Below, one piece after another: positions 1 to 43,769 of a DNA stretch of 64,000 nt. The stretch is from NCBI RefSeq assembly GCF_009914755.1, contig NC_060941.1; one strand, 5' to 3'. The DNA comes from the human T2T-CHM13v2.0 reference genome, Homo sapiens. Position 1 is the stretch's first letter, and each line of letters begins with the position of its first letter. Made by a program: the position numbers and the translations under genes. The notes beneath the pieces are model-generated. The model saw only the letters and a program-made list of their open reading frames with translations, had not been told where the DNA came from and did no database searches.

Positions 1-3000
1 CACTCCAGCCTGCGTGACAGAGTGAGATCTTGTCGAAAGAAAGGAATGGAATAGAATGGACTTAGAATGGAATGGAATGGAATGGAATGGAATAGAGTGT
101 AGTGGAGTGGAATGGAATGGAGTGGTATGGATTGTTATGGAATGGAATGGAATGGAGTGGAGTGGAGTGGGGTGGAATGGAGTTTAGTGGAATGAAGTGG
201 AATGGAATGGGATCGAATGGAACAGTGTGGAGTGGAGTGGAAAGGTGTAGAATGAAATGGAATGGAATGGAGTTGAATGGAGTGGAGTGGAGTTGATTGG
301 ATTGGAATGGAGTGGAGTAGAATGGAGTGGAGTGGAATGGAGTGGAGTGGGGTGGAGTGGAGTAGAATGGAATGGAATGGAATGAATGGAATGGAATTCA
401 AAGGAATGGAATGGAATGGATTGGAATGGAATGGAATGGAATGGAATGGAAAGGTGTAATGAAATGTGAGCTGAGATTATGCACTGCACTCCAGCCTTGG
501 TGACAGAGTGAGTTCCTGTTGGAAGAAAGGAATGGAATGGAATGGATTTTCAATGGAATGTAATGGAATGCAGTGGATTGTAGTGCGGTGGAGTGGAATG
601 GAGTAGAATGGAGTGGAATAGAGTGGAATGGAATGGGATGGAATGGATTGGAGTGTAGTGGCCTGGAGTGGAAAGTTGTAGAATGGAATGGAATGGAATA
701 TAGTGGAGTGGAGTGTAAGGGTGTTGATTGCAGTGGAAGGGAATGGAGTGGAATGGAGTTGAGTGGAGTGGAAAGGAGCAGAGTCGAGTGGAGTGGAGGG
801 GAGTGAAGTGGAATGGAATGGAACGGAGTGGAGTAGAATGACTGGAGTGCAGTGGAATTGACTGGAGTGGAATGGAATGGACTGGAGTGGAATGGAATGG
901 AGTGCAGTAGAGTGGAGTGGAATGGAGTGCAGTGGAGTGGATTGGAGTGGACTGGAGTGGTGTGGAATGGAGTAGAATGTAATGGGATGGAATGGAATTC
1001 AATGGAGTGGAGTGGAGGGGAATGGAGGGCAGTGGAATGGAATGTGAAGGAATGGAATTGAACAGAGTGGAGTGGAGTGGAATGGAATGCAATGGAATGC
1101 AATGGAGTGTAATGGAATGGAATGGAATGCAATGGAATGGAATGGTGAAATGAAATGTGAGCTGAGATTGTGCACTGCACTCCAGCCTGGGTGAGAGGGT
1201 GAGATCCTGTCAAAAGAAAGGAATGGAATGGAATGGAATGGAATGGATTTAGAATGGAATAAAATGGAATGGAATGGAATGGAGTGGAGTGGAGTGGAAT
1301 GGAATGGAATCGAATAGAATCAAATCGAATCCAATCTAATCTAATTAAATCGAATCGAATAGAATTAAATCAAATGGAATTGAATGGAATTGAACAGAAT
1401 CAAATGGAAAAAATGGAATGGAACGGAATCGAATTGAATCGAACTGAATGGAATAGAATGGCATTGAAGGGAATCGAATGGAATTCTATAAAGTAGAAAG
1501 CAGTGGACAGGAATGGAGTGGAATGGAATGGGGAGGAATTGAATTGAATGGAGGGGAGTGGAGTGGAATGGAGTGGAACGGAATGGAATGGGAAGGAATG
1601 GAATTGAACCAAGTGGAGTGGCATGGAGTGAAATGGAATGCAATGGAATGGAATGGAATGGAATGGTGAAATGAAATGTGAGCTGAGACTGTGCACTGCA
1701 CTCCAGCTTGGGTGACAGAGTGAAATCCTGTTGAAAGAAATGAATGGAATGGAATGGATTTAGAATGGAATGGAATGGAATGGAGTGGAGTGGATTGGAG
1801 TGGCGTGGAGTGGAGTGGAACGGAGTGGTTTGGATTGTTATGGAATGGAATGGAATGGAGTTGAGTGGAGTGCAGTGGGGTGGAGTGGAATTGAGTGGAG
1901 TGGAGTAGAAAGGTGCAGAATGGAATGGAGTGGAATGGAGCAGAGGGGAGGGGAGTGGAGTTGAGTGGAGTGGAATGGAATGGAGTGGAGTGGAATGGAG
2001 TGGAGGGCTGTAGAATGGAATGGAGTGGAGCAGAGTGGAGTGAAGTGGAGTGGAATGGACTGCAGTGGATTCGAATTGACTGGAGTGGAATGGAATGGAC
2101 GTGAGTGGAATGGAATGGATTGAAGTGGAATGCAGTGGAATGGAGTGAAGTGGAGTGGTATGGAGTGGAATGGAATGGAATGGATTGGAATGGAATGGAA
2201 TGGAATGGAATGTATTGGTATGGAATGGAGTGGAATGGAATGGAACGGAATGCAATGGAATGGATTGGAATGGAATGGCATGGAATGCAAGGGAAACGAA
2301 TGGATTGGAATCAAATGGAAACGAATGGAATTGAGTGGAATGAAATCGAATGGAATGGAATCAAATGACATCGAATGGAATTGAAACGAATGTGGTGAAC
2401 TGGAGAGGAGTGTCATGGAATGTGGTGGAATGGACTGGGGTGGAATGGAATTGAATGGAGTGGACTGGAGTGGAGTGGAATGTAATGCGATAGAATGGAA
2501 TGGAATGGAAAGGTGAAATAAAATGTGAGTTGAGATTGTGCACTAACTCCAGCCAGGGTGAAAGAGTGAGATCCTGTCGAAAGAAAGGAAGAGAATGGAA
2601 TAGATTTAGAATGGAATGGAATGGAGTGGCGTGAATTGGATTGGAGTGGAGTGGAGTGGAATTGTGTGGAATGGAATTGAGTGGAGTGGAATGGAATGGA
2701 ATGAAATGGAGTGGAATGGAGTGGAATCGTTTGGAGTGGAATGGAATGGAATGGGGTGGAGTGGAATGGAGTGGAATGCAGTGGAATGGAGTGGAATGGA
2801 ATGGAGTGGGGTGGAATGGAGTGGCGTGGAATGCAATGGAGTGGAATGGAATGGAATGGAATGAAATGGAAAGGAATGGAACGCACTGGAGTGGAATGGA
2901 ACTGACTGGAATGGAATGGAATCGAATCGAATCAAATCTACTCAAATCAAGTCAAATCGAATCAAATGGAATAGAATGGAATTGAATGGAATCAAATAGA

Positions 3001-4116
3001 ACAAATGGAATCAAAATGAATCGAATGGAACCGAATCGAATGGAATCGAATGGCATGGAATAGAATCAAAAGCAATGCGGTGAAAAGGAGTGGAGTGGAG
3101 TGGAAAGGATTGGAATGAAATGGGGTGCAATGGAATTGAATGGAGTGGAGTGCAGTGCAGTGGAATTGAGTGTAGTGGAATGGAATGGGAACGAATGGAA
3201 TTGAATGGAGTGGAGTAGAATTGAGTGGAGTGGAATGAAATGAAATGGAATGGAATCGAATAGAATGGAATGGAATGGAATGGAATGGAATGGAATGGAA
3301 TGGAATGGAATTGAATGGAATTGAAAGGAATCGAATGGAATCAAATGGTTTCGAATCAAATTGAAACAAATCAAATCAAATGGAATCGAGTGGAATTGAA
3401 TGGAATAGAATGAAATCAAATGGAAAAAATGAAACTGAATGGAATCGAATGGAGTCGAATTGAATGGAATCGAGTGGCATCGAACAGAATCAAATGAAAT
3501 GCGATGAAATGTACTGGAGTGGAATGGAATGGAGTGGAATGGAATAGGGTGGAATGGAATTGAATGGAGCGGACAGGAGTGGAATGCATTGGAATGGAAT
3601 GGAATGGGAAGGAATGGATTTGAACGGAGTGGAGTGGAGTTGAGTGGAGTGGAGTGGCATGGAATGGAATGGAATGGAATGGAATGGAATGGAATTTAAT
3701 GGAATGGAATGGTGAAATGAAAGGTGAGCTGAGATTGTGCACTGCACTCCAGCCTGGGTGACAGAGTGAGATCCTTTTGAAAGAAAGGAATGGAATGGAA
3801 TCGAATGAAATCAAATGGATGTAATAGAATTGAATGGAAAGCAATCGAATAGCATCGAATGGAATCGAATGGAATGCGGTGAAGTGGAGTGGAGTGGAAT
3901 GGAGTGGAATGGAATGGGGTGGAATGGAATTGAATGGAGCAGAGTGGAGTGGGGTGGAATGGAGTGGAGTGGAATGAAAAGGGAAGGAATGGAATTGAAC
4001 AGAGTGGAGTAGAGTGGAGTGGAATGGAATGAAACGGAATGGAATGGAATGGAATGGTAAAATGTGAGCTGAGACGGTGCACTGCACTCCAGCCTGAGTG
4101 ACAGAGTGAGATCCTT

Positions 4117-5908
4117 TTGAAACAAAGGAAAGGAATGGAATGGATTTAGAATGGAATGTAATGGAATGGATTCAGAATGGAATAGAATGGAAAGGAGTGG
4201 ATTGGAGTGGAGTGGAGTGGAGTGGAGTGGAGTGGAATGGAGTGGAATGGAATGGAGTGAAGTGGAATGGAATGGACTGGAATGGAGTGCAATGGAGTGG
4301 AGTGGAATGGAAGGGAATGAAATGGAGTGGAGTGCAGTGGAATGGGGTGGAGTGGAGTGGAATAGAATGGAATGGAATGGAGTGGAATGGAATTGAATGG
4401 AATGCAGTGGAATGTAGTGGAGTGGAGTGGAATGGAGTGGAGTGGAATGGAGTATAATGGAGTGAAGTGGAGTGGAGTGGAGTGGAGTAGAATGAAGTGA
4501 CGTGGAATGAAGTGGAATGGAATGGATTGGAATGGAATGGATTGGAATCAAATGGAATGGAATGGAACCGAATGGAATGGAATCGAATGAAATCAAATGG
4601 AATGGAATACAATCGAATGGAATGGAATCGAATGAAATCAAATGGAATGGAATACAATAGAATGGAATGGAATCAAATGGCATCGAATGGAATCGAATGG
4701 AATGCAGTGAAGTGGAGTGGAGTGGAGTGGAATGGAGAGGAATGGAATGGGGTGGAATGGAATTGAATGGAGCAGAGTGGAGTGGGGTGGAATGGAGTGG
4801 AGTGGAATGGAATGGGAAGGAATGGAATTGAACGGAGTGGAGTGCAGTGAAGGGGAGTGGAATGGAATACTATGGAATGGAATGGAATGGAATGGAATGG
4901 AATGGAATGGAATGGAATGGAATTCAATGGAATGGAATGGAATGGAATGGTGAAATCAAATGTGAGCTGAGATTGTGCACTGCACTCCAGCCTGAGTGAC
5001 AGAGTGAGATCCTTTTGAAACAAAGGAAAGGAATGGAATGGATTTAGAATGGAATGTAATGGAATGGATTCAGAATGGAATAGAATGGAAAGGAGTGGAT
5101 TGGAGTGGAGTGGAGTGGAGTTGAGTGGAGTGGAATGGAGTGGAATGGAATGGAGTGAAGTGGAATGGAATGGACTGGAATGGAGTGCAATGGAGTGGAG
5201 TGGAATGGAAGGGAATGAAGTGGAGTGGAGTGCAGTGGAATGGGGTGGAGTGGAGTGGAATAGAATGGAATGGAATGGAGTGGAATGGAATTGAATGGAA
5301 TGCAGTGGAATGTAGTGGAGTGGAGTGGAATGGAGTGGAGTGGAATGGAGTAGAATGGAGTGAAGTGGAGTGGAGTGGAGTGGAGTGGAGTGGAGTGGAG
5401 TAGAATGAAGTGACGTGGAATGAAGTGGAATGGAATGGATTGGAATGGAATGGATTGGAATCAAATGGAATGGAATGGAACCGAATGGAATGGAATCGAA
5501 TGAAATCAAATGGAATGGAATACAATCGAATGGAATGGAATCGAATGGCATCAAATGGAATGGAATACAGTCGAATGGAATGGAATCGAATGGCATCAAA
5601 TGGAATCGAATGGAATGCAGTGAAGTGGAGTGGAGTGGAGTGGAATGGAGAGGAATGGAATGGGGTGGAATGGAATTGAATGGAGCAGAGTGGAGTGGGG
5701 TGGAATGGAGTGGAGTGGAATGGAATGGGAAGGAATGGAATTGAACGGAGTGGAGTGCAGTGAAGGGGAGTGGAATGGAATACTATGGAATGGAATGGAA
5801 TGGAATGGAATGGAATGGAATGGAATGGAATGGAATGGAATGGTGAAATCAAATGTGAGCTGAGATTGTGCACTGCACTCCAGCCTGAGTGACAGAGTGA
5901 GATCCTTT
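4117..5908 (+). repeat. Recent ~895-bp tandem duplication of one composite monomer
   Basis: Near-identical unique landmarks repeat: aacaaaggaaagg...gattcagaatgg at ~4121 and ~5019, gaagtgacgtgg at ~4494 and ~5408, gaatactatgg at ~4865 and ~5778. Confidence 0.9.
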
Positions 5909-8900
5909 CAAAAGAAAGGAACATAATGGAATGGATTTAGAAAGGAATGTAATGGAATGGATTTAGAATGGAATGGAATGGAATAGTGTGGATTGGAGTG
6001 GAGTGGAATTCAGCGGAGTTGAATGGAGTGGAATGGAATGGAGTGGAGTGGAATGGAATGGAATGGAGTGCAATGGAGTGGAATGGAATGGAGTGGAGTG
6101 GAGTGGAATGAAATGGAGTGGAAAATAATGGAATGGAGTGGAATGGAATTGAATGGAATGGAGTGGAGTAGAGTGTAATGGAGTGGAGTGGAATGGAGTG
6201 GATTAGAGTGTAATGGAGTGGAGTGGAGTGGAGTGGAATGGAGTAGAGTGGAATGGAGTGGAATGTAATGGAAGGGAATGGAATGGAATGGAATCGAATG
6301 AAACAGAATTCAATGGAATGGAATGGAACAGAATGGAATGGAATGGAATGGCATCGAATGGATTCGAATGAAATGTGGTGAAGTGGAGTGGAGTGGAGTG
6401 GAATGGAGTCAAAAAAATGGGGTGGAATGGAATTGAATGAAGTAGAGTGCAGTGGAGTGGAATGGAGTGGAGTGGAATTGACTGGGAAGGAATGGAATTG
6501 AACAGAGTGGGGTTGAGTGGAGTGGAATGGAATGCAACGGAATGGGATGGAATGGTGAAATGAAATGTGAGCTCAGATTGTGCACTGCACTCCAACATGG
6601 GTGACACAGTGAGATCCTGTCAAAAGAAAGGAATGGAATAGAATGGATTTACAATGGAATGTAATGGAATGGAGTGGAGTGGAGTGGCATGGAGTGGAAT
6701 GGAGTGGTTTGGATAGTTATACAATGGAATGGAATGGAGTGGAGTGGAGTAGTGTGGAGTGTAGTGGAATCGAGTGGAATGGAATGGGATGGAATGGAAG
6801 AGAGTAGAGTGGAGTTGAGTGGAGTGGAAAGGTGTAGAAAGAAATGGAATGCAATGGAGAGGAGTGGAGTGGAGGGCAGTTGAGTGGAGTGGATTGGAGT
6901 GCAGTTAAATGAAGTGAAATGGAGTGGAGTGGAGTGGAGTCGAGTGGAAAGGTGTAGAATGGAATGCAATGGAAAAGAGAGGAATGGAGTGGAGTGGAAT
7001 GGAGTAGACTGTAGTGGAGTGGAATTGAGTGGAATGGAATAGAACGAAATGGAAGGGAATGTAATGTAATGGAATGGAATGGAATGGAATGCAATGGAAT
7101 TGAATCGAAGGGAATGGAATGGAATCGAATAGAATGGAATCGAACGGAATTGAGTGGATTCAAATGCATTGGAATGGAAATGAATGGAATGGAATCGAAT
7201 GGAATGCGGTGAAATGGAGTGGAGTGGAGTTGAATGGAGTGGAATGAAAAGGGATAGAATGGAAATGAATGGAGTGGAGTGGAGTAGAATGGAGTGGAGT
7301 GGAATGGAATGGGAAGGAATGGAATTGAATGGAGGGGAGTGGAGTGGAGTGGAATGAAATGCAATGGAACAGAATCGAATGGAATGGTGAAAGGAAATGT
7401 GAAATGAGACTGCACACTGCACTCCAGCCTGGGTGAGACAGTGAGATCCTGTCGAAAGAAAGGAAAGGAATAGAATGGATTTAGAATGGAATATAATGGA
7501 ATGGATTTAGAATGGAATATAATGGAATGGATTTAGAATGGAATGTAACGGAATGGAGTGCAGTGGAGTGGAGTGGAATGGACGACTGGAGTGGAGTGGA
7601 ACGGAATGGGATGAGTTGTTACGGAATGGAATGCAATGGAGTGGAATGGAGTGCTGTGGGGTGGAATGGAGTGGAGTGGAATGGAATGGGATGGAATGGA
7701 ATGGAGAGGAGTGGAGTGGAGTGGAAATATGTAGAATGGAATGGAATGGAGTGGAGTGGAATTGAGTGGAGTGGAATGGAGTGGAGTGGAATGGAGTGGA
7801 GTGGAGTGGAGTAGAGTGGAGTTTAGTGGAATGGAGTGGAATGAATTGGAATGAAAGGGAGTGGAGTGGAGTGGAGTGGAATGGAGTGGAGTGGATTGGA
7901 ATGAAAGGGAGTGGAGTGGAGTGGAGTGGAGTGGAATGGAATGGACTGCAATGGATTGGAATGGAAAGGAATTGAATGCAATGGAATGGAATGGCATGGA
8001 ATGGTGAAATGAAATGTGAGCTGAGATTGTGCACTGCACTCCAGCCTGGGTGAGAGAGTGAGATCCTGTCGAAAGAAAGGAATGAAATGGAATGCATTTA
8101 GAAAGAATGGAATGGAATGGAATGGAATGGAGTGAAATGGAGTGGAGTGGAATGGAGTGGAGTGGAGTGGAATGGAATGGAATTGAATGGAATCGAATCG
8201 AATTTACTGGACTCGAGTTGAATGGAATCGAATGGAATGGAATTGAATCGAATCGAATTGAGTGGAATCGAGTCGAATGGAATCGAATGGAATGAAATGG
8301 AATCGAATGGAAAAAATGGATTCAAATGAAATTGAATCAAATGGAATCGAATGGCATCAAATGGAATCGAACGGAATGTGGTTAAGTGAAATGGAGTGGA
8401 ATGGAATGGAGTGTAATGGAATGCAGTGGAATGGAATTCCATGGAGTGGAGTGGAGTGGAGTGGAATGGAATCGAATGGAATGGAATGGGAAGGAATGGA
8501 ATTGACCGGAGTGGAGTGGAGTAGAGTGGAATGCAATGCAATGCAATGGAATCGAATGGAATGGAATGGAATGGTGAAATGAAATGTGAGCTGAGATTGT
8601 GCACTTCAGTGCAGCCTGGGTGATAGAGTGAGATCCTGTCAAAAGAAAGGAATGGAATGGAATGGATTTAGAATGGAATGGAGTGGCGTGGAGTGGAGTG
8701 GAGTGCAGTGCTATGGAGTGGTATGGATTGTTATGGAATGGAATGGAGTGGAGTGGGGTGGAATGGAGAGGACTGGAATGGAGTGGAATGGAATGGGATG
8801 GAATGGAATGGAGTGGAGTGGATAGGAAATGTGTAGAATGGAATGGAATGGAATGGAGTTGAGTGGAGTGGAGTGGAGTTGAGTGGAATGGAATGGAATG

Positions 8901-9430
8901 GAGTGGAATGGAGTGTAGTGGAATGGAGTTGAGTGGAATGGAATGGAATGGAGTGGAATGGAGTGAAGTGGAATGCAGTGTAATGGAATGGAGTTGAGTG
9001 GAATGGAATGGAATGGAGTGGAATGGAGTGAAGTGGAATGCAGTGTAATGGAATAGAGTTGACTGGAATGGAATGGAATGGAATGAAGTGGAATGGAGTG
9101 AAGTGGAATGCAGTGTAATGGAATAGAGTTGAGTGGAATGGAATGGAATGGAGTGTAATGGAATGGAGTTGAGTGGAAGGGAATGGAATGGAGTGGAAAG
9201 CAGTGTAGTGGAATGGAGTGGAGTGGGTTGTAGTGGAGTGGAATGGAATGAAATGGAATGGAATGGAAAGGAATGGAATGGAATGGAATGGAATAAATGG
9301 TGAAATGAAATGTGAGCTGAGATTGTGCACTGCACTCCAGCCTTGGTGACAGAGTGAGATTCCGTCGAAAGACAGGAATGGAACGGAATGGATTTACAAT
9401 GGAATGTAATGTAATGGAGTGGAGTGGAGT

Positions 9431-9730
9431 GGCGTGGAGTGGAGTGGAGTGGAATTGAGTGGAATGGACGGTTATGGAATGGAATGGAATGGAGTGGAGT
9501 GGAGTGGAGTGTGGTGGAGTGGAGTGGAAATGAATGGAGTTGAATGGAAAGGGATGGAATGGAATGAAGGGGAGTGGAGTGGCGTGGAGTGGAGTGGAGT
9601 GGAATTGAGTGGAATGGACGGTTATGGAATGGAATGGAATAGAGTGGAGTGGAGTGGAGTGTGGTGGAGTGGAGTGGAGATGAATGGAGTTGAATGGAAA
9701 GGGATGGAATGGAATGAAGGGGAGTGGAGT
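9431..9730 (+). repeat. 150-bp near-perfect tandem duplication inside a monomer
   Basis: ggcgtggag...ggacggttatgg...ggaatgaaggggagtggagt occurs at 9431-9580 and 9581-9730; it appears single-copy in the paralogous monomer near 24785. Confidence 0.88.
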
Positions 9731-17420: not shown

Positions 17421-20400
17421 GGAATGGAATTACAATGTAATGTAATGTAATGCAGTGGAGAGGAGTGGAGTGGAATGGTGTGGAGTGGAGTGGAGTGCAG
17501 TGGAATGCAGTGGAAAGGAATGGGGTGTAGTGGACTTGAATGGAGTGGAGGGGAGTGTCGTGGAATGGAGTGGAATGGAATGGAATGGGAAGGAATGAAA
17601 TTGAACAGAGTGGAGTGGAGTGAAGTGGAATGGAATGCAATGGAATGGAATGGAATGGTGAAATGAAATGTGAGCTGAGAATGTGCACTGCACTCCATAC
17701 TGGGTGACAGAATGAGATCCTGAAGAAAGAAACGACGGGAATGGAATGGATTTAGAGTGGAATGTAAGGGAATTTAGTGGAGTGGAGTGGAGTCACATGG
17801 AGTGGAGTGAAGTGGAATGGAGTGGTGTGGATTGTTATGGAATGGAGTTGAGTGGAGTGGAGTGGGGTGGAGTGGAATGGAGTGGAGTGGAGTAGAAAGG
17901 TGCATAATGGAATGGAATGGAATGGAGCAGAGGGGAGGGGAATGGAATTGAGTGGAGTGGAATGGAATGGAGTGGAACGGAGTGGAGGGGAGTAGAATGG
18001 AATGGAGTGGAGTGGAGTGGAGTGAAGTGGAGTGGAATGGACTGGAGTGGAGTCGAATTGACTGGAGTGGAATGGAATGGACGTGAGTGGAATGGAATGG
18101 ATTGGAGTGGAATGGAGTGGAGTGGAGTGAAGTGGAGTGGAATGGACTGGAGTGGAGTCGAATTGACTGGAGTGGAATGGAATGGACGTGAGCGGAATGG
18201 AATGGATTGGAGTGGAATGGAGTGGAGTGGAGTGGAATGGAGTGGAGTGGAGTGGTATGGAGTTGGAGTGGAAAGGAGTGGAGTGGAGTGGAATGGAGTG
18301 GAGAGGAGTGGTATGGAGTGGAAGGGAATGGAATGGATTGGAATGGAATGGAATGGAATACATTGGAATGGAATGGAAAGGAATGGAATGGAATGGAATG
18401 CAAGGGAAACGAATCGATTGGAATCAAATGGAATCGAATGAAATTGAGTGGGATGGAATGGAATCGAATGGAATGGAATCAAATGACATAGAATGGAATC
18501 AAAAGGAATGTGGTGAACTGGAAAGGATTGTCATGGAATGTGGTGGAATGGACTGGGGTGGAATGGAATTGAATGGAGTGGAGTGGAGTGGAGTGGAGTG
18601 GAATGTAATGCGATAGAATGGAATGGTGAAATAAAATGTGAGTTGAGATTGTGCACTGCACTCCAGCCTAGGTGACAGAGTGAGAACCTGACGAAAGAAA
18701 GGAAGGGAATGGAATAGATTTAGAATGGAATGGAATGGAATGGAATGGAATGGAATGGAATGGAATGGAATGGAATGGATTTAGAATGGAATGGAATGCA
18801 ATGGAGTGGAATGGAGTGGAATCGAGTTTAGTGGAATTGAATGGAATGGGGTGGAGTGGAATGGAGTGGAATGCAGTGGAATGGAGTGGAATGCAGTGGA
18901 ATGGAGTGGAATGGAATGGAGTGGAGTGGAATGGAGTAGAGTGGAACGGAATGGAGTGGAATGGAATGGAATGGAATGGAATGGAGTGGAATGGAATGGA
19001 ATGGAATGGAATGGAGTGGAATGGAATGGAATGGAATGGAGTGGAATGGAATGGAATGGAATTGAATGGAATGGAATGCAATGGAATGGAATGGAACTGA
19101 ATGGAATAGAACGGAATCGAATCGAATCGAACTGACTCAAATCAAATCGAATTGAATCAAATGGAACAAAATAGAATTGAATGGAATTGAATAGAACAAA
19201 TGGAATCGAAATGAATCGAATGGAATTGAATCGAATGGAATCGAATGGCATGGAATTGAATCAAATGGAATGTGGTGAAAAGGAGTGGAGTGGAGTGGAA
19301 AGGATTGGAATGAAAGGGGGTGGAATGGAATTGAACGGAGTGGAGTGCAGTGGAGTGGATTTGAGTGGAGTGGAATGGAATGGGAAGGAATGGAATTGAA
19401 TGGAGTGGAGTGGAATGGAATGAGTGGAGTGGAATGGAATGGAATGGAATGGAAAGGAATCAAATGGAATGGAATTGAATGGAATCAAATGGAATCGAAT
19501 GGAATCAAATGGAAGCAAATGGTTTTGAATCGAATCGAATCAAATGGAATCGAGTGGAATCAAATGGGATAGAATGAAATCAAATGGAAAAAATGGAATT
19601 GAATGGAATCAAAAGGAATCGATTCGAATGGAATCGAGTGGCATCGAACAGAACCGAATGGAATGCGATGAAATGTACTGGAGTGGAGTGGAATGGAGTG
19701 GAAAGGAATGGGGTGGAATGGAATTGAATGGAGTTGAGAGGAGTAGAATATATTGGAATGAAATGGAATGGGAAGGAATGGATTTGAACGGAGTGGAGTG
19801 GAGTAGAATGGAATGGAATGGAATGGAATGGAATGGAATGGAATTTAATGGAATGGAATGGAATGGTGAAATGAAAGGTGAGCTGAGATTGTGCACTGCA
19901 CTCCAGCCAGGGTGACAGAGTGAGATCATTTCGAAAGAAAGGAATGGAATGGAATGGATTTAGAATGGAATGTAATGGAATGTAGTGGAGGGAATTGGAG
20001 TGGCGTGGAGTGGAGTGGAGTGGAGTGAAATGGAGTGGAATGTATTGTTATGGAATGGAATGGAATGGAGTGGAGTGGAGTGGGATGAAGTGAAGTGGAA
20101 TGGAGTGGAATGTATTGTTATGGAATGGAATGGTGTGGAGTGGAGTGAAGTGGAGTGGGATGAAGTGGAGTGGAATGGAGTGCAATGGAATGGGATGGAA
20201 CAGAAAGGAGTAGAGTGTAGTGGTGTGGAGTGCAAAGGTGTAGAATGGAATGGATTGGAAAGGAGTGGAGTGGAGTTGAGTGGAGTGGAATGGAATGGAA
20301 TGGTGTGGAGAGGAGTAGAATGGAGTGGAGTGGAGTGCAGTGGAGTGAAGTGACTTGGAATGGAATGGAGTGCAGTGGAATGGAATGGAGTGGAGTGGAA

Positions 20401-23400
20401 TGCACTGGAGGGGATGGAATTAACTGGAGTGGAATGGAATGGACTGTAATGGAATGAAAAGGAATGGAGTGGAGTGGAATGGAGTGGAGTGGAGTCTTAT
20501 GGTGTGGAATGGAATGCAATGTTGTGGAGTGGAGGAGAGTGGAGTGGAGTGGACTGGAGTGTAGGGGAAGAGAGTGGAATGGAATGGAGAGGAGTGGAGT
20601 GGAATGGAGGGGGTGGAATGGAGTGGAGTGGAGTGGTTTGGATTGCAATGGAATGGAATGGAATGGAATGAAGTGGAGTGGAATGGAGAGGAATGGAATG
20701 GAATGGAATGCAATGCAATGCAATGGAATGGAAGGGAATGGAGTGGAATGGAATGGAATGGATTGGAATCGAACGGAATGTAATGGAATCGAATGGAATG
20801 GAATCGAATGAAATCAAAAGAATGGAATAGAATTGAATGGAACGGAATCGAATAGCATCGAATGGAATCGAATGGAATGCGGTGAAGTGGAGTGGAGTGG
20901 AATGGAGTGGAATGGAATGGGGTGGAATGGAATTGAATGGAGCAGAGTGGATTGGGGTGGAATGGAGTGGAGTGGAATGAAATGGGAAGGAATGGAATTG
21001 AACGGAGTGGAGTGGAGTGGAATGGAATGCAATGGAATGGAATGGAATGGAATGTTGAATTGTGAGCTGAGATGGTGTACTGCACTACAGCCTGAGTGAC
21101 AGAGTGAGATCCTTTTGAAAGAAAGGAAGGGAATGGAATGGATTTAGAATGGAATGTAATGGAATGGATTTAGAATGGAATAGAATGGAATGGAGTGGAG
21201 TGGATTGGAGTTGAGTGGAGTGGAATGGAGTGGAATGGAATGGAGTGGAGTGGAATGGAATGGACTGGAATGGAGTGCAATGGAGTGGAGTGGAATGGAA
21301 TGGAATGAAGTGGATTGGAGTGGAGTGGAGTGGAGTGGAATGGAGTGGAGTGAAGTGGAATGAAGTGGAGTGGAATAGAATGGAATGGAGTGGAATGTAA
21401 TTGAATGGAATGCAGTGGAATAGAGTGGAGTGGAGTGGAATGGAGTGGAGTGGAATGGAGTGGAATGGAGTGAAGTAGAGTGGAGTGGAGTGGAGTGGAA
21501 TGAAGTGATGTGGAATGAAGTGGAAGGGAATGGAACGGAATGGAATGGAATGGATTGGAATCAAATGGAACGGAATGGAACCGAATGGAATGGAATCGAA
21601 TGAAATCAAATGGAATGGAATGGAATCGAATGGCATCGAATGGAATTGAATGGAATGAGGTGAAGTGGAGTGGAGTGGAATGGAGAGGAATGGAATGGGG
21701 TGGAATGGAATTGAATGGAGCAGAGTGGAGTGGGGTGGAATGGAGTGGAGTGAAATAAAGTGGGAAGGAGTGGAATTGAACAGAGTGGAGTGGAGTGGAG
21801 TGGAATGGAATACAATGGAATGTAATGCAATGGAATGGAATGGAATGGTGAAATCAAATGTGAGGTGAGATTTTGCTCTGCACTCCAGCCTGAGTGACAG
21901 AGTGAGATCCTTTCGAAAGAAAGGAAAGGAATGGCATGGATTTAGAATGGAATGGAATGGAATGGAATGGTGTGGATTGGAGTGGAGTGGAGTTCAGCGG
22001 AGTTGAATGGAGTGGAATGGAATGGAGTGGAGTGGAATGGAATGGGCTGCAACGGAGTGGAATGGAATGGAATGGAGTGGAGTGGAGTGGAATGGAATGG
22101 AGTGGAGTGGAATGAAATGAAGTGGAATATAATGGAATGGAGTGGAATGGAATTGAATGGAATCGAGTGAGATGGAGTGGAGTGGAGTGGAGTGGAATGG
22201 AGTGGAGTGGAATGGACTGGAATGGAGTGGAGTCGAGTGGAATGGAGTGGAGTGGAATGGAGTGGAATGTAATGGAAGGGAATGGAATGGAATCGAATCG
22301 AATGGAACAGAATTCAATGGAATGGAATGGAATGGAATGGAATCGAATGGAATGGAATGGAATCGAATGGAATGGAATCAAATGGCATCAAATGGATTCG
22401 AATGAAATGTGGTGAAGTGGAGTGGAGTGGAGTGGAATGGAGTCAAAAGGAATGGAGTGGAATGGAATTGAATGAAGTAGAGTGCAGTTGAGTGGAATGG
22501 AGTAGAGTGGAATGCACTGGGAAGGAATGGAATTGAACGGAGTGGAGTGGAGTAGAGTGGAGTGGAATGGAATGCAATGGAATGGAATGGAATTTAATGG
22601 AATGGAATAGAATGGTGAAATGAAATGTGAGCTCACATTGTGCACTGAACTCCAACCTGGGTGACACAGTGAGATGCTGTTGAAAGAAAGGAATAGAATA
22701 GAATGGATTTAGAATGGAATGTAATGGAATGGAGTGGAGTGGGGTGGAGTGGATTGGTGTGGAGTGGAATGGAGTGGTTTTGATAGTTATGCAATGGAAT
22801 GGAATGGAGTGCAGTGGAGTGGCGTGGAGTGGAGTGGAATCGAGTGGAATGGAATGGGATGGAATGGAACAGAGTAGAGTGGAGTGGAGTGGAGTGGAAA
22901 GGTGTAGAAAGAAATGGAATGGAATAGAGAGGAGTGGAGTGGAGGGTAGTTGAGTGGAGTGGATTGGAGTGCAGTGAAATGGAGTGAAATGGAGTGGTGT
23001 GGAATGCAGTGGACTGGAGTGGAGTGGAGTGGAGTCAAGTGGAAAGGTGTAGAATGGAATGGAATGGAAAGGAGAGGAGGGGAGTGGAGTGGATTTGAGT
23101 GGAATGGATGGTAGTGCAGTGGAATGGAGTGGAGTGGAATGGAGTAGAGTGTAGTGGAGTAGAGTTGAGTTGAGTGGAATGGAATAGAACGAAATGGAAT
23201 GGAGTGGAATGGAATGGAATGGAATGCCATGGAATGGAATCGAAAGGAATGGAATTGAACGGAATTGAATGGATTCAAATGCAATGGAAGGAAAATGAAT
23301 GGAATGGAATCGAATGGAATGCGGTGAAATGGAATGGAGTGGAGTTGAATGGAGTGGAATGAAAAGGGATGGAATGGAAATGAATGGAGTGGAGTGGAAC

Positions 23401-26400
23401 GGAGTAGAATGGAGTGGAGTGGAATGGAATGGGAAGGAATGGAATTGAACGGAGGGGAGTGGAGTGGGGTGGAATGAAATGCAATGGAACAGAATTGAAT
23501 AGAATGGTGAAATGAAATGTGAGCTGAGATTGCACACTGCACTCCAGCCTGGGTGAGACAGTGAGATCCTGTTGAAAGAAAGGAAGGGAATGGAATGGAT
23601 TCAGAATGGAATATAATGGAATGGATTTAGAATGGAATGTAACGGAATGGAGTGCAGTGGAGTGCAGTGGAATGGACTGGAGTGGAGTGGAACGGAATGG
23701 TATGGATTGTTATGGAATGGAATGCAATGGAGTGGAACGGAGTGCTGTGGGGTAGAGTGGAGTGGAATGGAATGGAGTGGAATGGAATGGAATGGGATGG
23801 AAAGGAATGGAGAGGAGTGGAGTGGAGTGGAAATGTGTAGAATGGAATGGAATGGAGTGGAGTGGAATGGAGTGGAGTGGAGTGGAGTAGAGTGGAGTTT
23901 AGTGAAATGGAGTGGAATGGAGTGGAGTGGATTGGAATGAAAGGGAATGGAGTGGAGTGGAGTGGTGTGGAATGGAGTGGACTGGAATGGAATTGAGTGG
24001 AGTGGAATGGAGTGGAGTGGAGTGGAATGGAATGAAATGCAATGGATTGGAATGGAAAGGAATTGAATGCAATGGAATGGAATGGCATGGAATGGTGAAA
24101 TGAAATGTGAGCTGAGATTGTGCACTGCACTCCAGCCTGGGTGAGAGAGTGAGATCCTGTCGAAAGAAAGGAATGCTATGGAATGGATTTAGAAAGAATG
24201 GAATGGAATGGAATGGAATGGAATGGAATGGAATGGAATTGAGTGGAATGGAGTGGAGTGGAATGGAATGGTGTGGAGTGGAATGGAATGGAATGGAATC
24301 GAATGGAATCGAATCAAATCGAATCGAATCAAATTGAATGGAATCGAGTCAAATGGAATCTAATGTAATTGAATGGAATCGAATGGAAAAATGGATTCGA
24401 ATGGAATCGAATCAAATGGAATCGAATGGCATCAAATGGAATCAAATGGCATCAAATGGAATCGAATGGAATGCTGTGAAGTGGAATGGAGTGGAGTGGA
24501 ATGGAGTGGAATGGAATGGGGTAGAATGGAATTCAATGGAGTGGAGTGGAGTGGAATGGAATCGAATGGAATGAAATGGGAAGGAATGGAATTGACCGGA
24601 GTGGAGTGGAGTGGAGTGGAATGGAATGCAATGGAATGGAATGGAATGGAATGGTGAAATGAAATGTGAGCTGAGATTGTGCACTGCACTCCAGCCTGGG
24701 TGACAGAGCGAGATTCCATCGAAAGAAAGGAATGGAATGGAATGGATTTACAATGGAATGTATTGTAATGGAGTGGAGTGGAGTGGCGTGGAGTGGAGTG
24801 GAGTGGAATTGAGTGGTATAGATTGTTATGGAATGGAATGGAATGGAATGGAGCAGAGTGGAGTGGGGTGGAGTGGAGTGGAGTGGAATGGAGTGGAATG
24901 GAATGGGATGGAATGGAATGAAGTGGAGTGGAGTGGCATAGAGTGGAGTGGAGTGGAATTTAGTGGTATGGATTCTTATGGAATGGAATGGAATGGAGTT
25001 GAGTGGAGTGTAGTTGGGTGGAGTGGAGAGGAGGGGAATGGAGTGGAATGGAATGGGATGGAATGGAATGGGGAGGAGTGGAGTGGAGTGGAAAGGTGTA
25101 GAATGGAATGGAATGGAATATAGTGGAGTGGAGGGGAGTTGAGTGCAGTGGAATGGAATGGAGTGGAATGAAGTGGAGTGGAGTGGAATGGAGAGGAGTG
25201 GAGTGGAGTGGAATGGAGCAGAGTGGAGAGGAGTGGAGTGAAGTGAAGTGGAGTGGAATGGAATGGAGTGGAGTGGAAAGCAATAGAGTGGAGTGGAATG
25301 GACTGGAGTGGAATGGAATGGACTTGAGTGGAATGATATGGGGTGGAGTGGAATGGAATGGAGTGCAGTAGAGTGGAGTGGAGTAGAATAGAGTGGAGTG
25401 GAATGGAGTGGAATGGACTGGAGTGGAGTGGAATGGAGTGGAATGGAATGGAATGGAATGGATTGGAGTGGAGTCTTATGGAGTGCAGTGCAATGGAGTG
25501 GAATGGAGTGGAATGGAATGGAACAGAATGAAATGGAGTGGAATCGAAAGGAATCAAATGGAATGGAATGGAATGGAATGGAATGGAATGCGATGAAGTG
25601 GTGTGGAGAAGGGTGGAATGGAGTGGAATGGAATGGGGTGGAATAGAATTCAATGGAGTGGAGTGCAGTGGAGTGGCATGGAGTAGAGTGGAACGGAATG
25701 GGAAGGAATTGAACAGAGTGGATTTTAGTGGAGTGAAGTGGAATGCAAAGGAATGGAATGGTGAAATGAAATGTGAGCAGAGATTGTGCGCTGCACTCCA
25801 GCCTGGGTGACCTAGTGAGATCCTGTCAAAAGAAATGAATGGAATGGAACAGATTTAAAATGGAATGTAATGGAATGGACTAGAGTGGAGTGGAGTAGCG
25901 TGGAGTGGAGTGAAATGGAGTGGTATGGATTCTTATGGAATGGAATGGAATGGAGTGGGGTGGAGTGGAGTGGAAAGGTGTGGAATGGAATGGAATGGAG
26001 TATAGTGGAGTGGAGTGGAGTGGAGGGGAGTTGAGTGCAGTGGAATGGAATGGAGTGGAATGGAGTGGAGTGGAATGGAGCAGTGTGGAGTGGAGTGGAG
26101 TGAAGTGAAGTGGAGTGGAATGGAATGGAATGGAGTAGAGTGGAATGGACTGCAGTGGAGTGGAATGGACTGGAGTGGAATGGAATGGACTGGGGTGGAA
26201 TGGTATGGAGTGGAGTGGAATGGAATGGAGTGCAGTGGAGTGGAGTGGAATGCAGTGGAGTGGAATTGAGTAGAATGGACGTGACTGAAGTGGAATGGAG
26301 TGGAATGGAATGGAATGGAGTGGAGTGGAGAGGAATGGAGTGCAGTGCAATGGAGTGGAGTGAAGTGGAGTGGAATGGAATGGAATGGAATCAAAAGAAA

Positions 26401-29319
26401 TCAAACGGAATGGAATGGAATGCGATGAAATGTTGTGGAGTGGAGTGGAATGGACTGGAATGGAATGGGGTGGAATGGAATTCAATGGAGTGGATTGGAG
26501 TGGAATGGCATGGAGTGGAATGGAATGGGAAGGAATGGAATTAAACGGAGTGGAGTGGAGTGGAGTGAAGTGGAATGAAATGCAATGGAATGGAATGGAG
26601 AAATCAAATGTGAGCTGAGATTATGCACTGCACTCCAGCCTGGGTGACCTAGTGAGATCCTGTCAAAAGAAAGGAATGGAATGGAATGGATTTGAAATGG
26701 AATGTAATGGAATGGAGTGGAGTGGAGTGGAATAGCGTGGAGTGGAGTGGAATGGAGTGGTATGGATTCTTATGGAATGGAATGGAATGCAGTGGACTGG
26801 AGTGGGGTGTAGTGCAGTGCAATGGAGTGGAATGGAATGAGATGGAAAGTAATGGAGTGGAGTGGAGTGGAGTGGAATGGTGTAGAATGGAGTGGAATGG
26901 AGTGGAGTGGAGTGGATTGCAGTTGAGTGGAGTGGATTGGAGTGCAGTGGAATGGAGTTGAATGGAGTGGAGTGGAATGAAGTGGAGTGGAGTGGAATGG
27001 AGTGGAATGGAATGGAGTGAAATGGAATGTAGTTTAATCAAATGGAATTGAATGGAATGGAATCGAATGGCATCGAATGGAATCGATTGGAATGCAGTGA
27101 AGTGGAGTGGAATGGAGTGGAATGAAGTGGAATGGAATGGGGTAGAATGGAATTGAATGGAGTGGACTGGATTGAAGTGGAAGGTAGTGGAGTGGAATGT
27201 AATGGGGAGGAATGGAATTGTACGGAGTGGAGTGGAGTGGAATGGAATGCAATGCAATAGCATGGAATGGAATGGTGAAAAGAAATGTGAGCTGAGATTG
27301 TGCACTGCACTCCAGCCTGGGTGACAGAGTGAAATCCTGTCGAAAGAAAGGAAGAGAATGGAAAGGATTTATAATGGAATGGAATGGAATGGATTTATAA
27401 TGGAATGTAATGCAATGTAGTGGAGTGGAGTGGAGTGGATTGGAGTGGAGTGGAATGGAGTGGAATGGAATTGAGTGGAGTGGAATGGAGTGGAGTGGAA
27501 TGGAGTGGAATGGAATTGAGAGGAGTGGAATGGAATGGAATGGAATGGAGTGCAATTGAATGGAATGGAATGGAATGGAATGGAATGGAGTGCAATTGAA
27601 TGGAATGGAATGGAATGGAATGGAGTGGAATGGAGTGGAATGGAGTGGAGTGTAATGGAGTGGAGTGCAGTGGAATGAAGTGGATTGGAGTGGAATGGAA
27701 TGGAGTGGAATGGAGTGGAGTGGAGTGGAATGGAATGGAGTGGAATGGAATGGAATGCGGTGAAGTGGAGTGCAGTGGAGTGGAATGAAGTGGAATGGAA
27801 TGGGGTGGAATGGAATTGAATAGCGTGGAGTGGAGTGGGTGGAATGGACTGTAGTGGAATGGAATTTCGCCGTAGATAAAAACTAGTATTTCCGCCTACC
27901 ATTGAGTTTACTTATAGCTAACCAAAACGGCACTCTGTCTCGGGAATACAGATTTGCCTAGAGGTATCCTATTGCAGTCAAAGAAAGAGCAATGAGGGGT
28001 AGAAAAGTTTAGTGATGGAGACACCAAAGCTGCATTTTACAAAACACAGTGTAAAAACTTTACGGATTGGTTCTGCTAACTTACTACAGTTTACATTCCT
28101 CTCAGGTGGCAGAATTGTTGAGTTTTTTCTTAAGATAGAAAAGCAATTCAGATAATCTGAAATCTCCACAAGAAGGTTAAGAAGCAGAACAGAAATTATT
28201 CTAGGCAGGAAGTCAATCCTTTAAACTGTCTGTGCTCCATAGAAACAATTGTCTGCACTGGGAGTCATATGCGGTACAGACAACAGCCAGACCTCTGATC
28301 CTCTCATTTGTGATTTCAGAAGAAATTACCAGTCAACTGAGTAATTCACTGACTAAAGTATACATTTGGCACTGAAAGAGGTTAGACGGATAACTATTTG
28401 TATCACTATATTCATGAAGCTGGAATATTTTCCATTACTCGTATCACATCCGAATGGAAGATTTTAAAAGCTCTCTCATCTTGTAAGATGGATATGAAAG
28501 AACATTGTCTGAGAAATGAAATTATTAACACACCTGCGAGGTGGATGGAAGAGAAAAAAAGAATAATCAGCTTGAGTTCTTCTCCTTGATAAGACAACTC
28601 ACTAAAAACATAGAGAGAAAAATACAAGTTTAAAATAATTAACCAGAAGAAGACAACTCCAGAGTTTTTAAATGGCTGATAAGATTTTAATTTGCTGCAA
28701 GTTGAAAATAACTATATTGCTTGTGTTTTAAGGCACATAATGAGCAATTATATCACACATGATAGGTTCAGCAGTAAAATATTATCCGTTAACAGCTGGT
28801 ACTCATAAAAGCATAGCACAATGTGAAGATGGAATTTTCTAAAATAAACCATCTTCTGAAAACTACTATTCTGTAAATTTAAAAACAAAGTTTATATGTT
28901 ATTTGTCTTATTTAATAGGTCTGTGAAAAAATGAGATATTTGAAAAGTAGGTGCTACCTTAATTAGTTCTTTATATTAGACAGCTGGTTACAGTAATGCA
29001 CAGTAAGGTACTACATACAAATGTGGCTAAATTTTCTGCATATACTATGTATTTAGCTTAAATTATTTGAAATTTTATAGTTAAAGTAACAAATGTATAT
29101 TTAAATGTTTTGACACAAATTGCAAATATACCTTTAAAAAGCATCTTACACTCTAAATATTATTTGTCACCTATATATTTGTCTTTTCTCTGTAGGAAAT
29201 TTTAAATATTTCCCTTGAAGCTTTAATTATTTCAGTCTATAAAACAAACTGATAATGTTCAAATTAACAGGAAAAAAAGGTTTACAGATATGTGCACAAG
29301 TATGCACTTGGAGTTTACA

Positions 29320-29390
29320 TAATATATATAAATATATATACAAATATTTTTATATTATACATAGATATACAAATATATACTATATATATA
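29320..29390. repeat. Degenerate (TA)n / AT-rich simple repeat
   Basis: aatatatataaatatatata...tatatatata. Confidence 0.7.
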
Positions 29391-29469
29391 AAAACTCCAG
29401 GAAAGGCAAGGTAGTCAACACGCCTATGCTGTCTTGAGGTTACAGAAAACACAGACCTGTACGTTGGTC

Positions 29470-30121
<652 letters not shown>

Positions 30122-30231
30122 TATGTACAATAAATATTATTGTGATTTTTAATCTTTACTCTTCTGTGGAGAAAACACAGGTGTGATTTCTAGTGTAGCT
30201 GAATATCACATTTATTTGACAATATTGCACT

Positions 30232-30252
30232 TGTGTGTGTGTGTGTGTGTGT
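30232..30252. repeat. (TG)n microsatellite
   Basis: tgtgtgtgtgtgtgtgtgtgt. Confidence 0.9.
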
Positions 30253-43765: not shown

Positions 43766-43769
43766 GTTT

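What the first reader, a model, noticed from the sequence alone, without database searches (positions are those of the whole stretch)
1..27865. Composite satellite: an Alu 3' fragment co-amplified as the anchor of every HSat3-like monomer
Seen: 38 copies of the same ~55-bp Alu right-arm tail, all on the G-rich strand, about 240-1240 bp apart (mean ~740). They share the same 5' truncation point (after tggtgaaatgaaat), the same 1-bp deletion relative to Alu (GCGCCACTG to GTGCACTG) and a similar gaaagaaagg exit. Inference: one Alu remnant was captured once and amplified with the satellite; these are not independent insertions. Annotation that splits the region into (GAATG)n and Alu bits would hide that this is a distinct TE-satellite composite with conserved anchors and hypervariable linkers.
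Basis: partly seen in the sequence, partly recalled or inferred. Interest (0 to 1): 0.8.

Follow-up and report, generated by a model that had tools for sequence, protein, structure and literature searches.

The report
Alu-tail relic punctuating an HSat3 array
A 65-base leftover of one ancient Alu element is repeated 38 times inside a human satellite 3 array beside the chromosome 17 centromere; it is a real, single-origin passenger, but it belongs to a widespread satellite type whose link with Alu fragments is already in print.

Summary
There are 38 same-strand copies of an Alu right-arm tail in window 1-27865, spaced 242-1240 bp (mean 738). All share one 5' boundary, one 1-bp deletion and one A-rich exit.

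It is not a locus-specific novelty.
- The same junction occurs 211 times genome-wide in the deleted form and 1252 times in the undeleted form (each at 3 mismatches or fewer), on at least 14 chromosomes.
- The array carries the published HSat3A4 marker 24-mer, not the chr17 HSat3B1 marker.
- The 28-kb array is the shorter paralogue of a 65-kb, 84-cassette array on the other side of the chr17 centromere. Both lie in a segmental duplication whose non-satellite flank is 93.6-95.7% identical.

The linkers are not hypervariable. Cassette variants follow a conserved order, with a roughly 2.1-kb four-cassette unit shared with chr10/13/14/21. Linker lengths of syntenic units correlate at r=0.96.

The cassette has diverged as fast (5.7%) as the flank (4.3-6.4%), so it looks like a neutral passenger.

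Two T2T papers already say that HSat3 arrays carry Alu/TE fragments. Verdict: real, single capture, already known in kind. The cladistic and higher-order detail may be new. Low interest.

The parts
1..27865 (+). Whole p-arm-side cassette-bearing HSat3 array (HSat3A4-type). It is GGAGT-rich with GC skew about 0.78. Its first cassette starts 46 nt before the window.
   Evidence: TRF; composition; 38 cassettes; 12 exact HSat3A4 marker 24-mers; no cassette in the 100 kb upstream
1..44 (+). Cassette 1 (3' part only, cut by the window start)
466..530 (+). Cassette 2: Alu-tail core plus A-rich tail
1157..1221 (+). Cassette 3 (class R)
1678..1742 (+). Cassette 4 (class E)
2525..2588 (+). Cassette 5 (64 nt, the only copy with an extra 1-nt loss)
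3724..3788 (+). Cassette 6 (class S)
4064..4128 (+). Cassette 7 (class G)
4962..5026 (+). Cassette 8 (class H)
5855..5919 (+). Cassette 9 (class H; 893-bp tandem copy of the previous unit, 90% identical)
6567..6631 (+). Cassette 10 (class T)
7399..7463 (+). Cassette 11 (class M)
8016..8080 (+). Cassette 12 (class A)
8586..8650 (+). Cassette 13 (class A)
9312..9376 (+). Cassette 14 (class E)
10514..10578 (+). Cassette 15 (class N)
11496..11560 (+). Cassette 16 (class O)
12491..12555 (+). Cassette 17 (class C)
13199..13263 (+). Cassette 18 (class B)
13785..13849 (+). Cassette 19 (class I, A-like)
14276..14340 (+). Cassette 20 (class D)
14518..14582 (+). Cassette 21 (class F, C-like)
15266..15330 (+). 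Cassette 22 (class B)
15892..15956 (+). Cassette 23 (class A)
16363..16427 (+). Cassette 24 (class D)
16605..16669 (+). Cassette 25 (class C)
17348..17412 (+). Cassette 26 (B-like, unclustered)
17670..17734 (+). Cassette 27 (class P)
18638..18702 (+). Cassette 28
19878..19942 (+). Cassette 29 (class J)
21062..21126 (+). Cassette 30 (class G)
21860..21924 (+). Cassette 31 (class H)
22627..22691 (+). Cassette 32
23519..23583 (+). Cassette 33 (class M)
24107..24171 (+). Cassette 34 (class A)
24666..24730 (+). Cassette 35 (class E)
25773..25837 (+). Cassette 36 (class N)
26610..26674 (+). Cassette 37 (class O)
27287..27351 (+). Cassette 38 (class U, the last before the flank; the q-arm array also ends in a class U copy)
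12455..14481 (+). Four-cassette higher-order unit, copy 1 (classes C-B-I-D, 2027 bp)
   Evidence: Self-blast offset 2027 at 85.8%; class order; 91.1% at aligned bases to copy 2
14482..16568 (+). Four-cassette higher-order unit, copy 2 (classes F-B-A-D, 2087 bp)
   Evidence: the same order and spacings occur on chr17 q, chr10 and chr13/14/21
2489..12454 (+). Long-range block 1 of the roughly 16.1-kb internal duplication (classes ..S G H H T M A A E N O)
   Evidence: Self-blast offsets 16.0-16.2 kb at 82-86%; class order
18602..27250 (+). Long-range block 2 of the roughly 16.1-kb internal duplication (classes ..J G H . M A E N O)
25859..51566 (+). Part of the window that aligns colinearly with chr17:27,879,655-27,903,696 on the far side of the centromere. 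It covers the last 2 kb of the array plus about 24 kb of non-satellite flank, a segmental duplication.
   Evidence: Megablast: 93.6% over 8703 columns, 95.7% over 4970, 95.3% over 11930

Best explanation
Window 1-27865 is an old, diverged HSat3 array of the HSat3A4 type. Each sub-unit of 242-1240 bp ends in a 65-nt relic of one Alu right-arm 3' end (about 55 nt plus an A-rich tail).

Proposed history:
1. One Alu, or Alu fragment, came to lie in a (GGAAT)n tract once.
2. The relic plus adjacent pentamers was amplified by unequal exchange. It is now a common feature of many HSat3 arrays on at least 14 chromosomes.
3. A copy that lost one C (GCCACTG to GCACTG) and acquired a downstream GGATTTAGAATGG motif founded the sub-clade found here and on chr10, 13, 14, 16, 21 and 22.
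4. Sub-units of this clade diverged and became fixed in a higher-order pattern: a roughly 2.1-kb unit of four cassette types, plus larger blocks.
5. Whole blocks then spread by segmental duplication, including to both sides of the chr17 centromere.

The relic itself does nothing detectable. It diverges at the same rate as neighbouring non-satellite DNA. It looks 'conserved' only because, unlike the pentamer tracts, it cannot slip.

Shown here: the shared junctions, the deletion clade, the order and length conservation, the segmental duplication, and the equal divergence. Inferred: the retrotransposition origin, amplification by unequal exchange, and the order of events.
For: Single origin:
- All 38 window copies and all 84 chr17 q-arm copies lie on the G-rich strand.
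- The 5' junction 20-mer is within 2 mismatches in 160 of 178 sampled copies.
- Alignments to four in-window Alus all start at the same base.

Genome-wide spread:
- The 100-nt cassette matches chr4, 10, 13, 14, 16, 17 (two sites), 20, 21 and 22 at 95-97%, with 1178 first-look candidates of which 40 were scored.
- The 40-mer junction (deleted form) has 211 matches at up to 3 mismatches; the reversed control has 0.
- The 41-mer undeleted form has 1252 matches; control 0.

Deletion clade: the deletion column is a gap in 37/37 p, 84/84 q and 36/36 chr10/13/14/16/21/22 copies. A base is present in 12/13 chr4 and 8/8 chr20 copies.

Subfamily:
- The HSat3A4 marker 24-mer is exact 12 times in the window array and 22 times in the q array.
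- None of the other 13 markers has an exact hit in the window array.
- It is also the only marker found in the chr10/13/14/16/21/22 samples.

Higher order:
- The class strings of p and q share the runs G-H-T-M-A, C-B-I-D-F-B-A-D-C and E-N-O, and both end in U.
- Syntenic spacings correlate at r=0.96, n=16, with 0 of 10000 permutations as high.

Duplication: the flank is 93.6-95.7% identical to chr17:27.88-27.90 Mb.

Neutrality:
- Syntenic p-q cassette cores differ at 57/1008 = 5.7%.
- The adjacent satellite differs at 72/1333 = 5.4%.
- The flank differs by 4.3-6.4%.
- Non-syntenic cores differ by 12.4%.
Against: - The genome-wide counts are lower bounds at a fixed mismatch threshold. Only the first 100 places of each search were listed, so the chromosome list is incomplete. 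Copies with another junction would not have been found by these junction patterns.
- Only 17 kb plus six 3.1-kb samples (18.6 kb) were read outside chr17.
- The quick ML tree of 178 copies needed 7 changes of the deletion state. However, the tree constrained to one clade had a log-likelihood 31.7 higher, with AU p=0.82, so the tree neither proves nor rejects a single deletion event.
- One deletion-type unit sits among undeleted cassettes on chr4. This could be the progenitor, or a conversion product.
- HSat3A4 was published as acrocentric/Y in the 2014 table. chr17 is not listed there, and I could not see the current cenSat labels.
- Equal divergence shows no strong purifying selection since the p-q duplication. 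It does not exclude a function that tolerates change.
Confidence: 0.85

Rival explanations
1. The cassettes are independent Alu insertions into a hot spot of the satellite, each truncated separately.
For: Alu elements are frequent around the array: four lie in window 40-55 kb.
Against: All copies share the same start base, the same 1-bp deletion, the same exit motif and the same strand: 37 of 37 and 84 of 84 on chr17. Length is 65 nt in 36 of 37 copies. No copy carries any more of the Alu.
Confidence: 0.01
2. The cassette is kept by selection. It might act as a protein-binding, nucleosome-phasing or transcript-processing element that gives each HSat3 sub-unit a functional anchor.
For: The cassette is far more uniform in length than the linkers. 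It is retained in well over a thousand copies on many chromosomes. HSat3 is reported as a platform for transcription-factor motifs (passages read), and from recall it is transcribed under heat stress.
Against: Syntenic p-q copies differ by 5.7% in the Alu core. That equals the adjacent satellite (5.4%) and the non-satellite flank (4.3-6.4%). Non-syntenic copies differ by 12.4%. Length stability is expected for any non-repetitive insert in a slippage-prone tract. The 75 kb of HSat3 directly upstream holds no cassette.
Confidence: 0.07
3. The cassette spread through pre-existing HSat3 arrays by gene conversion or repeated patch insertion, rather than being amplified together with its linker.
For: One deletion-type unit of about 440 bp lies among undeleted cassettes on chr4. 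Rhie et al. report no clustering of HSat3-Alu fragments by chromosome (passages read).
Against: Cassette class, neighbouring class and linker length are inherited together in p and q and on chr10/13/14/21. This fits block duplication. The lack of clustering by chromosome is also what block duplication of already-diverged units would produce.
Confidence: 0.05
4. The relic comes not from a dimeric Alu but from a related 7SL-derived element (a free right monomer or similar). Alternatively, it comes from an AluY of PAR1, as proposed in print.
For: Only about 55 nt survive, too few to name a subfamily with the tools here. Rhie et al. call the HSat3-associated fragments AluY and derive them from PAR1 (passages read).
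Against: The relic aligns to the right-arm ends of all four in-window Alus from the same base. Mean divergence among non-syntenic cassettes (12.4%) is 2.2 times that of a duplication whose flanks are already about 5% diverged. By inference, that suggests an old capture, not obviously compatible with a young subfamily.
Confidence: 0.05

Closest known systems
HSat3 subfamily A4 (Altemose et al. 2014; includes clone pTRS-47, 1366 bp, chr14/22)
   Same: Pentamer-based HSat3. The published A4-specific 24-mer is the only one of the 14 subfamily markers with exact hits in the window array: 12 in the window and 22 in the q-arm paralogue. The cassette's other sites are mostly acrocentric, as published for A4.
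   Different: The 2014 table lists chr13, 14, 15, 21, 22 and Y, not chr17 or chr10/16. That paper's main text has no occurrence of the word Alu. I could not fetch pTRS-47 or the cenSat track to confirm the label.
[quoted passage not shown] (preprint passages read)
   Same: The same phenomenon: Alu pieces embedded in HSat3 on the Y and the acrocentrics, with no clustering by chromosome.
   Different: The passages I read do not describe the single shared junction, the 1-bp deletion clade, the four-cassette higher-order unit or the chr17 arrays. They name the fragments AluY seeded from PAR1, which I could not test. Figures and supplements were not visible to me.
HSat1B / DYZ2 (about 2.5-kb unit with one ancient AluY subunit)
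   Same: A satellite whose repeat unit contains a co-amplified Alu piece.
   Different: HSat1B has an unrelated AT-rich unit, a larger Alu part and highly homogenised copies (over 98% identical). Here the relic is 65 nt and copies differ by about 12%.
HSat3B1 array of chr17 (the '280 kb' array of Altemose et al.)
   Same: Same chromosome arm, about 280 kb distal; also HSat3.
   Different: A different array. The B1 marker 24-mer has 0 matches in the window even at 3 mismatches. Of its 98 exact genome matches, 86 lie at chr17:21.99-22.23 Mb on the opposite strand.
T2T 'composite satellites' (arrays built entirely of TE pieces) and beta-satellite/LSau composites
   Same: TE-derived sequence amplified in tandem.
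   Different: Here the TE part is under 10% of each unit, and the bulk is a simple pentamer satellite.

Membership tests
Human satellite 3 (HSat3) | Long tandem array derived from the pentamer GGAAT/CATTC | tested here: met
   TRF finds period 5, about 5500 copies, consensus GAATG, at 39-27865. My count for the paralogous q-arm array is 289-339 GGAAT per 5 kb.
HSat3 subfamily A4 | Presence of the published subfamily-specific 24-mer and absence of the other subfamilies' markers | tested here: met
   12 exact and 23 within 1 mismatch in the window array. The other 13 markers have 0 exact hits there. The same holds for the samples from chr10, 13, 14, 16, 21 and 22.
HSat3 subfamily A4 | Assignment by the authors' k-mer classifier / cenSat track label | not testable with these tools
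   Neither the classifier nor the track is on hand. chr17 is not among the 2014 localisations.
HSat3 subfamily A4 | Sequence identity to the reference clone pTRS-47 | not testable with these tools
   The clone sequence cannot be fetched, and the Choo 1990 paper is not held.
HSat3 subfamily B1 (chr17-specific) | Presence of the B1-specific 24-mer | tested here: not met
   0 matches in the window at up to 3 mismatches. The B1 marker clusters at chr17:21.99-22.23 Mb.
Alu-derived sequence | Colinear similarity to the 3' end of the Alu right arm | tested here: met
   Local alignments of 48-66 columns to four Alus of the same window, all starting at the same cassette base. blastn-short E 1e-5 to 1e-6 to three of them.
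Alu subfamily (AluY as published for HSat3-associated fragments) | Diagnostic positions of the subfamily | not testable with these tools
   No Alu subfamily library is available, and only about 55 nt survive.
Composite satellite in the T2T sense (unit made entirely of TE pieces) | Repeat unit composed of TE fragments only | tested here: not met
   The relic is 65 nt out of units of 242-1240 nt. The rest is pentamer satellite.
Single-capture co-amplified insert | Identical junctions, strand and private mutations in all copies | tested here: met
   over 178 copies from nine chromosomes.

The most novel reading that the evidence does not exclude
All Alu-bearing HSat3 descends from one capture with one fixed junction. 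At least 1463 junction-matching copies on at least 14 chromosomes support this.

The relic's private changes and its ordered variants would then form a positional barcode that no paper I could search describes. The barcode would consist of the 1-bp deletion clade and the C-B-A-D four-cassette unit of about 2.1 kb.

The barcode would order the spread of HSat3 arrays between acrocentrics, chr10, chr16 and both flanks of the chr17 centromere.

The depth of cassette divergence (12.4%, 2.2 times a duplication that is already about 5% diverged) would place the capture earlier than the published 'AluY from PAR1' seeding.
Probability: 0.35. Interest if true: 0.4.

Novelty: already known. Interest (0 to 1): 0.2.

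Why it matters
As a phenomenon it adds little. HSat3 arrays with embedded Alu fragments are in print, and this array is part of an annotated reference.

Its practical value is as a marker:
- A non-slippable 65-nt relic once per sub-unit makes otherwise unalignable pentamer satellite alignable.
- It revealed here that the chr17 p-arm array is a shortened paralogue of a q-arm array across the centromere.
- It showed that linker lengths are inherited.
- It showed that a roughly 2.1-kb four-cassette unit is shared between chromosomes.

The same barcode could be used to trace HSat3 exchange among acrocentric short arms, which is relevant to Robertsonian breakpoints. It could also be used to date HSat3 in apes.

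Tried and rejected
- I first took the array for the published chr17 HSat3B1 array, from the text. This was rejected: the B1 marker is absent from the window, and the B1 array lies at 21.99-22.23 Mb.
- A fuzzy-regex scan timed out and was replaced by blastn-short.
- Regex-based feature counts were unreliable and were replaced by alignment-column counts.
- Rfam at gathering threshold gave 0 matches in the window, so there is no independent RNA-family label.
- The ML tree of 178 cassettes is too short to resolve the deletion clade. The free tree needed 7 state changes, the constrained tree was better, and AU p=0.82.
Only small samples were read (plus the loci). Array extents and cassette counts outside chr17 are therefore unknown.
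- The p-side distal boundary is not syntenic with the q-side boundary: no alignment spans it.
- Papers not held: Choo 1990, Choo 1992, the published version of Altemose et al. (the id was recalled and may be wrong) and Jarmuz 2007. Bandyopadhyay 2001 was never looked up. It is cited by Altemose et al. for TE fragments in HSat3 and may describe this very relic. bioRxiv supplements and all figures were not visible.
- Searches for prior description.

Full report
**1. The observation**

TRF finds one pentamer array (GAATG, about 5500 copies) at 39-27865. GC skew is about +0.78 until 28 kb and about 0 after it.

With window 1131-1230 as query, blastn-short finds 38 cassette copies in the array, all on the + strand. 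37 are complete; one is cut by the window start. Spacings are 242-1240 bp, mean 738, median 726.

The 17-mer core gives 99 matches at up to 3 mismatches, against 0.08 expected. The - strand matches in that list are GGAGT-type pentamer variants, not cassettes.

**2. The cassette is Alu-derived, with one junction**
- Four ordinary Alus lie in window 40-55 kb.
- Local alignments of the cassette to each of them start at the same cassette base (the G of GTGAGC). They run 48-66 columns to the end of the Alu body and into the A-rich tail.
- All four Alus read GCCAC where the cassette reads GCAC.
- The core plus tail is 65 nt in 36 of 37 complete copies.
It includes about 35 nt of upstream satellite and a GGATTTAGAATGG motif downstream.

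**3. It is not specific to this locus**

The whole assembly could be searched.
- The 100-nt cassette matches chr4, 10, 13, 14, 16, 17 (22.5 and 27.8 Mb), 20, 21 and 22 at 95-97%. There were 1178 first-look candidates, of which 40 were scored.
- A 40-nt word across the 5' junction (deleted form) has 211 matches at up to 3 mismatches, and 0 for the reversed control.
- That word detects 30 of 37 window copies and 62 of 84 q-arm copies, so true numbers are roughly a third higher.
- The same word with the C retained, taken from a chr20 copy, has 1252 matches with control 0. The listed places are on contigs 1, 3, 4, 7, 9, 13, 14, 15, 20, 21, 22 and 24; contig 24 is presumably the Y.
- Only the first 100 places of each search were listed.

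**4. A derived clade**

I aligned 178 copies: 37 from the window, 84 from chr17 q and 57 from small samples of chr4, 10, 13, 14, 16, 20, 21 and 22.
- The deletion column is a gap in 37/37, 84/84 and 36/36 copies of chr17p, chr17q and chr10/13/14/16/21/22 respectively.
- A base is present in 12/13 chr4 and 8/8 chr20 copies.
- The consensus of the two groups is otherwise the same up to the exit. The downstream GGATTTAGAATGG motif goes with the deletion form.
- The 5' junction 20-mer is within 2 mismatches in 160/178 copies and within 4 in 175/178.
- A quick ML tree cannot resolve 130 columns. The free tree needed 7 changes of the deletion state. The tree with the undeleted copies held together was better by 31.7 log-likelihood units, with AU p=0.82.
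- One deletion-type unit of about 440 bp sits among undeleted cassettes on chr4. It could be a progenitor-like relic or a conversion product.

**5. Which satellite**

I first assumed this was the chr17 HSat3B1 array of Altemose et al.. It is not.
- The B1 marker 24-mer from their 2014 table has no match in the window.
- Of its 98 exact genome matches, 86 lie at chr17:21.99-22.23 Mb on the other strand.
- Of the 14 published subfamily markers, only the HSat3A4 marker has exact hits in the window array: 12 there and 22 in the q-arm array.
- It is also the only marker seen in the chr10/13/14/16/21/22 samples.
- HSat3A4 is the acrocentric subfamily that includes clone pTRS-47.

**6. Context on chr17**
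- The 100 kb upstream holds no cassette. From about 22.431 to 22.506 Mb there is a different, GGAGT-poor HSat3 with skew 0.60.
- The cassette domain therefore begins 46 nt before the window and ends at 27865.
- On the other side of the centromere the same order recurs in the same orientation: GGAGT-poor HSat3, then a 65-kb cassette array with 84 cassettes (27,816,516-27,881,053), then non-satellite DNA.
- The last 2 kb of the window array and the following 24 kb align colinearly to chr17:27,879,655-27,903,696 at 93.6%, 95.7% and 95.3%. This is a segmental duplication bracketing the centromere.
- The distal boundary is not syntenic. The window's first 1.7 kb matches the middle of the q array at 90%, and no alignment spans the p boundary. 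The p array is therefore a shortened version.

**7. Higher-order structure, not hypervariable linkers**

Clustering the cassettes gives this class string for p.RE.SGHHTMAAENOCBIDFBADC.P.JGH.MAENOU
- The q array contains GHTMACBIDFBADC and ENOCB..., and also ends in U.
- Within the window, classes C-B-(A/I)-D form a four-cassette unit of 2027 and 2087 bp (12455-16568), 86% identical by blast.
- The same order and spacings occur on chr10 and chr13/14/21.
- A roughly 16.1-kb internal duplication links 2489-12454 to 18602-27250 at 82-86%.
- Linker lengths of 16 syntenic units in p and q correlate at r=0.96, with mean difference 55 bp and 0 of 10000 permutations as high.
- Variants I versus A and F versus C are shared by p and q. 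The unit copies therefore diverged before the p-q duplication.

**8. Is the relic constrained?**
- For 18 syntenic p-q cassette pairs, the Alu core differs at 57/1008 = 5.7%.
- The adjoining satellite differs at 72/1333 = 5.4%.
- The non-satellite flank differs by 4.3-6.4%.
- Non-syntenic cores differ by 12.4% on average.
- There is no sign of purifying selection. The apparent conservation of the 'anchor' is what a non-repetitive insert in a slippage-prone tract would show.

**9. Mechanism (inference)**
1. One Alu entered a GGAAT tract. Its A-rich tail now merges into the pentamers.
2. Its 5' part was lost, either at insertion or soon after.
3. The relic plus neighbouring pentamers was amplified by unequal exchange.
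4. Later steps were the 1-bp deletion founder, diversification into ordered variants, and block duplication between chromosomes.

By a recalled neutral rate of about 1e-9 per site per year, 5.5% divergence would be of the order of 25 million years. The 12.4% divergence among cassettes would be more than twice that. This is rough and untested.

**10. Literature**
- Altemose et al. [quoted passage not shown] They cite Bandyopadhyay 2001, which I did not look up.
- Rhie et al. [quoted passage not shown] They report that such fragments on the Y and the acrocentrics cluster together without clustering by chromosome, and that they were seeded from PAR1 AluY.
- Altemose 2014 (passages read) has no occurrence of 'Alu' in its main text.
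- My searches found no paper that describes the shared junction, the deletion clade, the four-cassette unit or the chr17 pair. Figures, bioRxiv supplements and the older clone papers were not visible to me.

**11. Verdict**

The single-capture reading is supported. The claims of novelty and hypervariable linkers are not. The phenomenon is already known, and the detail offered here is a modest refinement.

Noticed in passing
window 25859-51566 and L026-L028 (chr17:27,879,655-27,903,696): A direct-orientation segmental duplication brackets the chr17 centromere, about 5.35 Mb apart. On both sides the order is GGAGT-poor HSat3, then cassette HSat3, then at least 24 kb of non-satellite flank. The flank is 93.6-95.7% identical. 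Its far end was not reached.
   Followed up: partly
L011-L018 (chr17:22,431,001-22,506,000) and L019-L020: A 75-kb HSat3 block lies directly upstream of the window. It is a different type: GGAGT-poor, GC skew 0.60, no cassette. It has only 2 exact hits to the HSat3A2 marker and none to A4 or B1. The same type precedes the q-arm cassette array.
   Followed up: partly
chr17:21,989,096-22,227,987 (places listed, not fetched): The HSat3B1 marker 24-mer recurs every 2.2 kb or so between about 22.06 and 22.16 Mb. Between 22.17 and 22.23 Mb it recurs as a four-hit pattern every 9.62 kb or so. This suggests two nested periodicities in the B1 array.
   Followed up: no
window cassettes, e.g. 8016-8080 compared with the Alu at about 53200-53560 (- strand): At four CpG sites of the youngest-looking in-window Alu, the cassette consensus reads TG on the same strand. 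At one of these sites, classes C/F keep CG and classes M/C show CA, as if that CpG decayed several times in parallel.
   Followed up: partly
L031 (chr4:49,546,001-49,550,000): Cassettes here are only 160-620 bp apart and keep the undeleted form. One deletion-type unit of about 440 bp lies among them. Variant sharing suggests paralogous copies of this locus on chr3, 13, 14, 15 and 22.
   Followed up: partly
L004 (chr21:8,099,712-8,102,811) vs L008 (chr13:11,074,513-11,077,612): These two 3.1-kb samples of cassette array differ at only 2 of 3100 bases, indicating very recent exchange between acrocentric short arms.
   Followed up: partly
window 50933-52028: A GC-rich minisatellite with a 22/38/44-bp period (unit like GCGGCTTTTTGCCCCCGCCGCC). 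It lies in a region of 52% GC, inside the part duplicated on the q side.
   Followed up: no
window 40685-41276: A purine-rich (AAGG)n-like simple repeat of about 600 bp, adjacent to an Alu.
   Followed up: no
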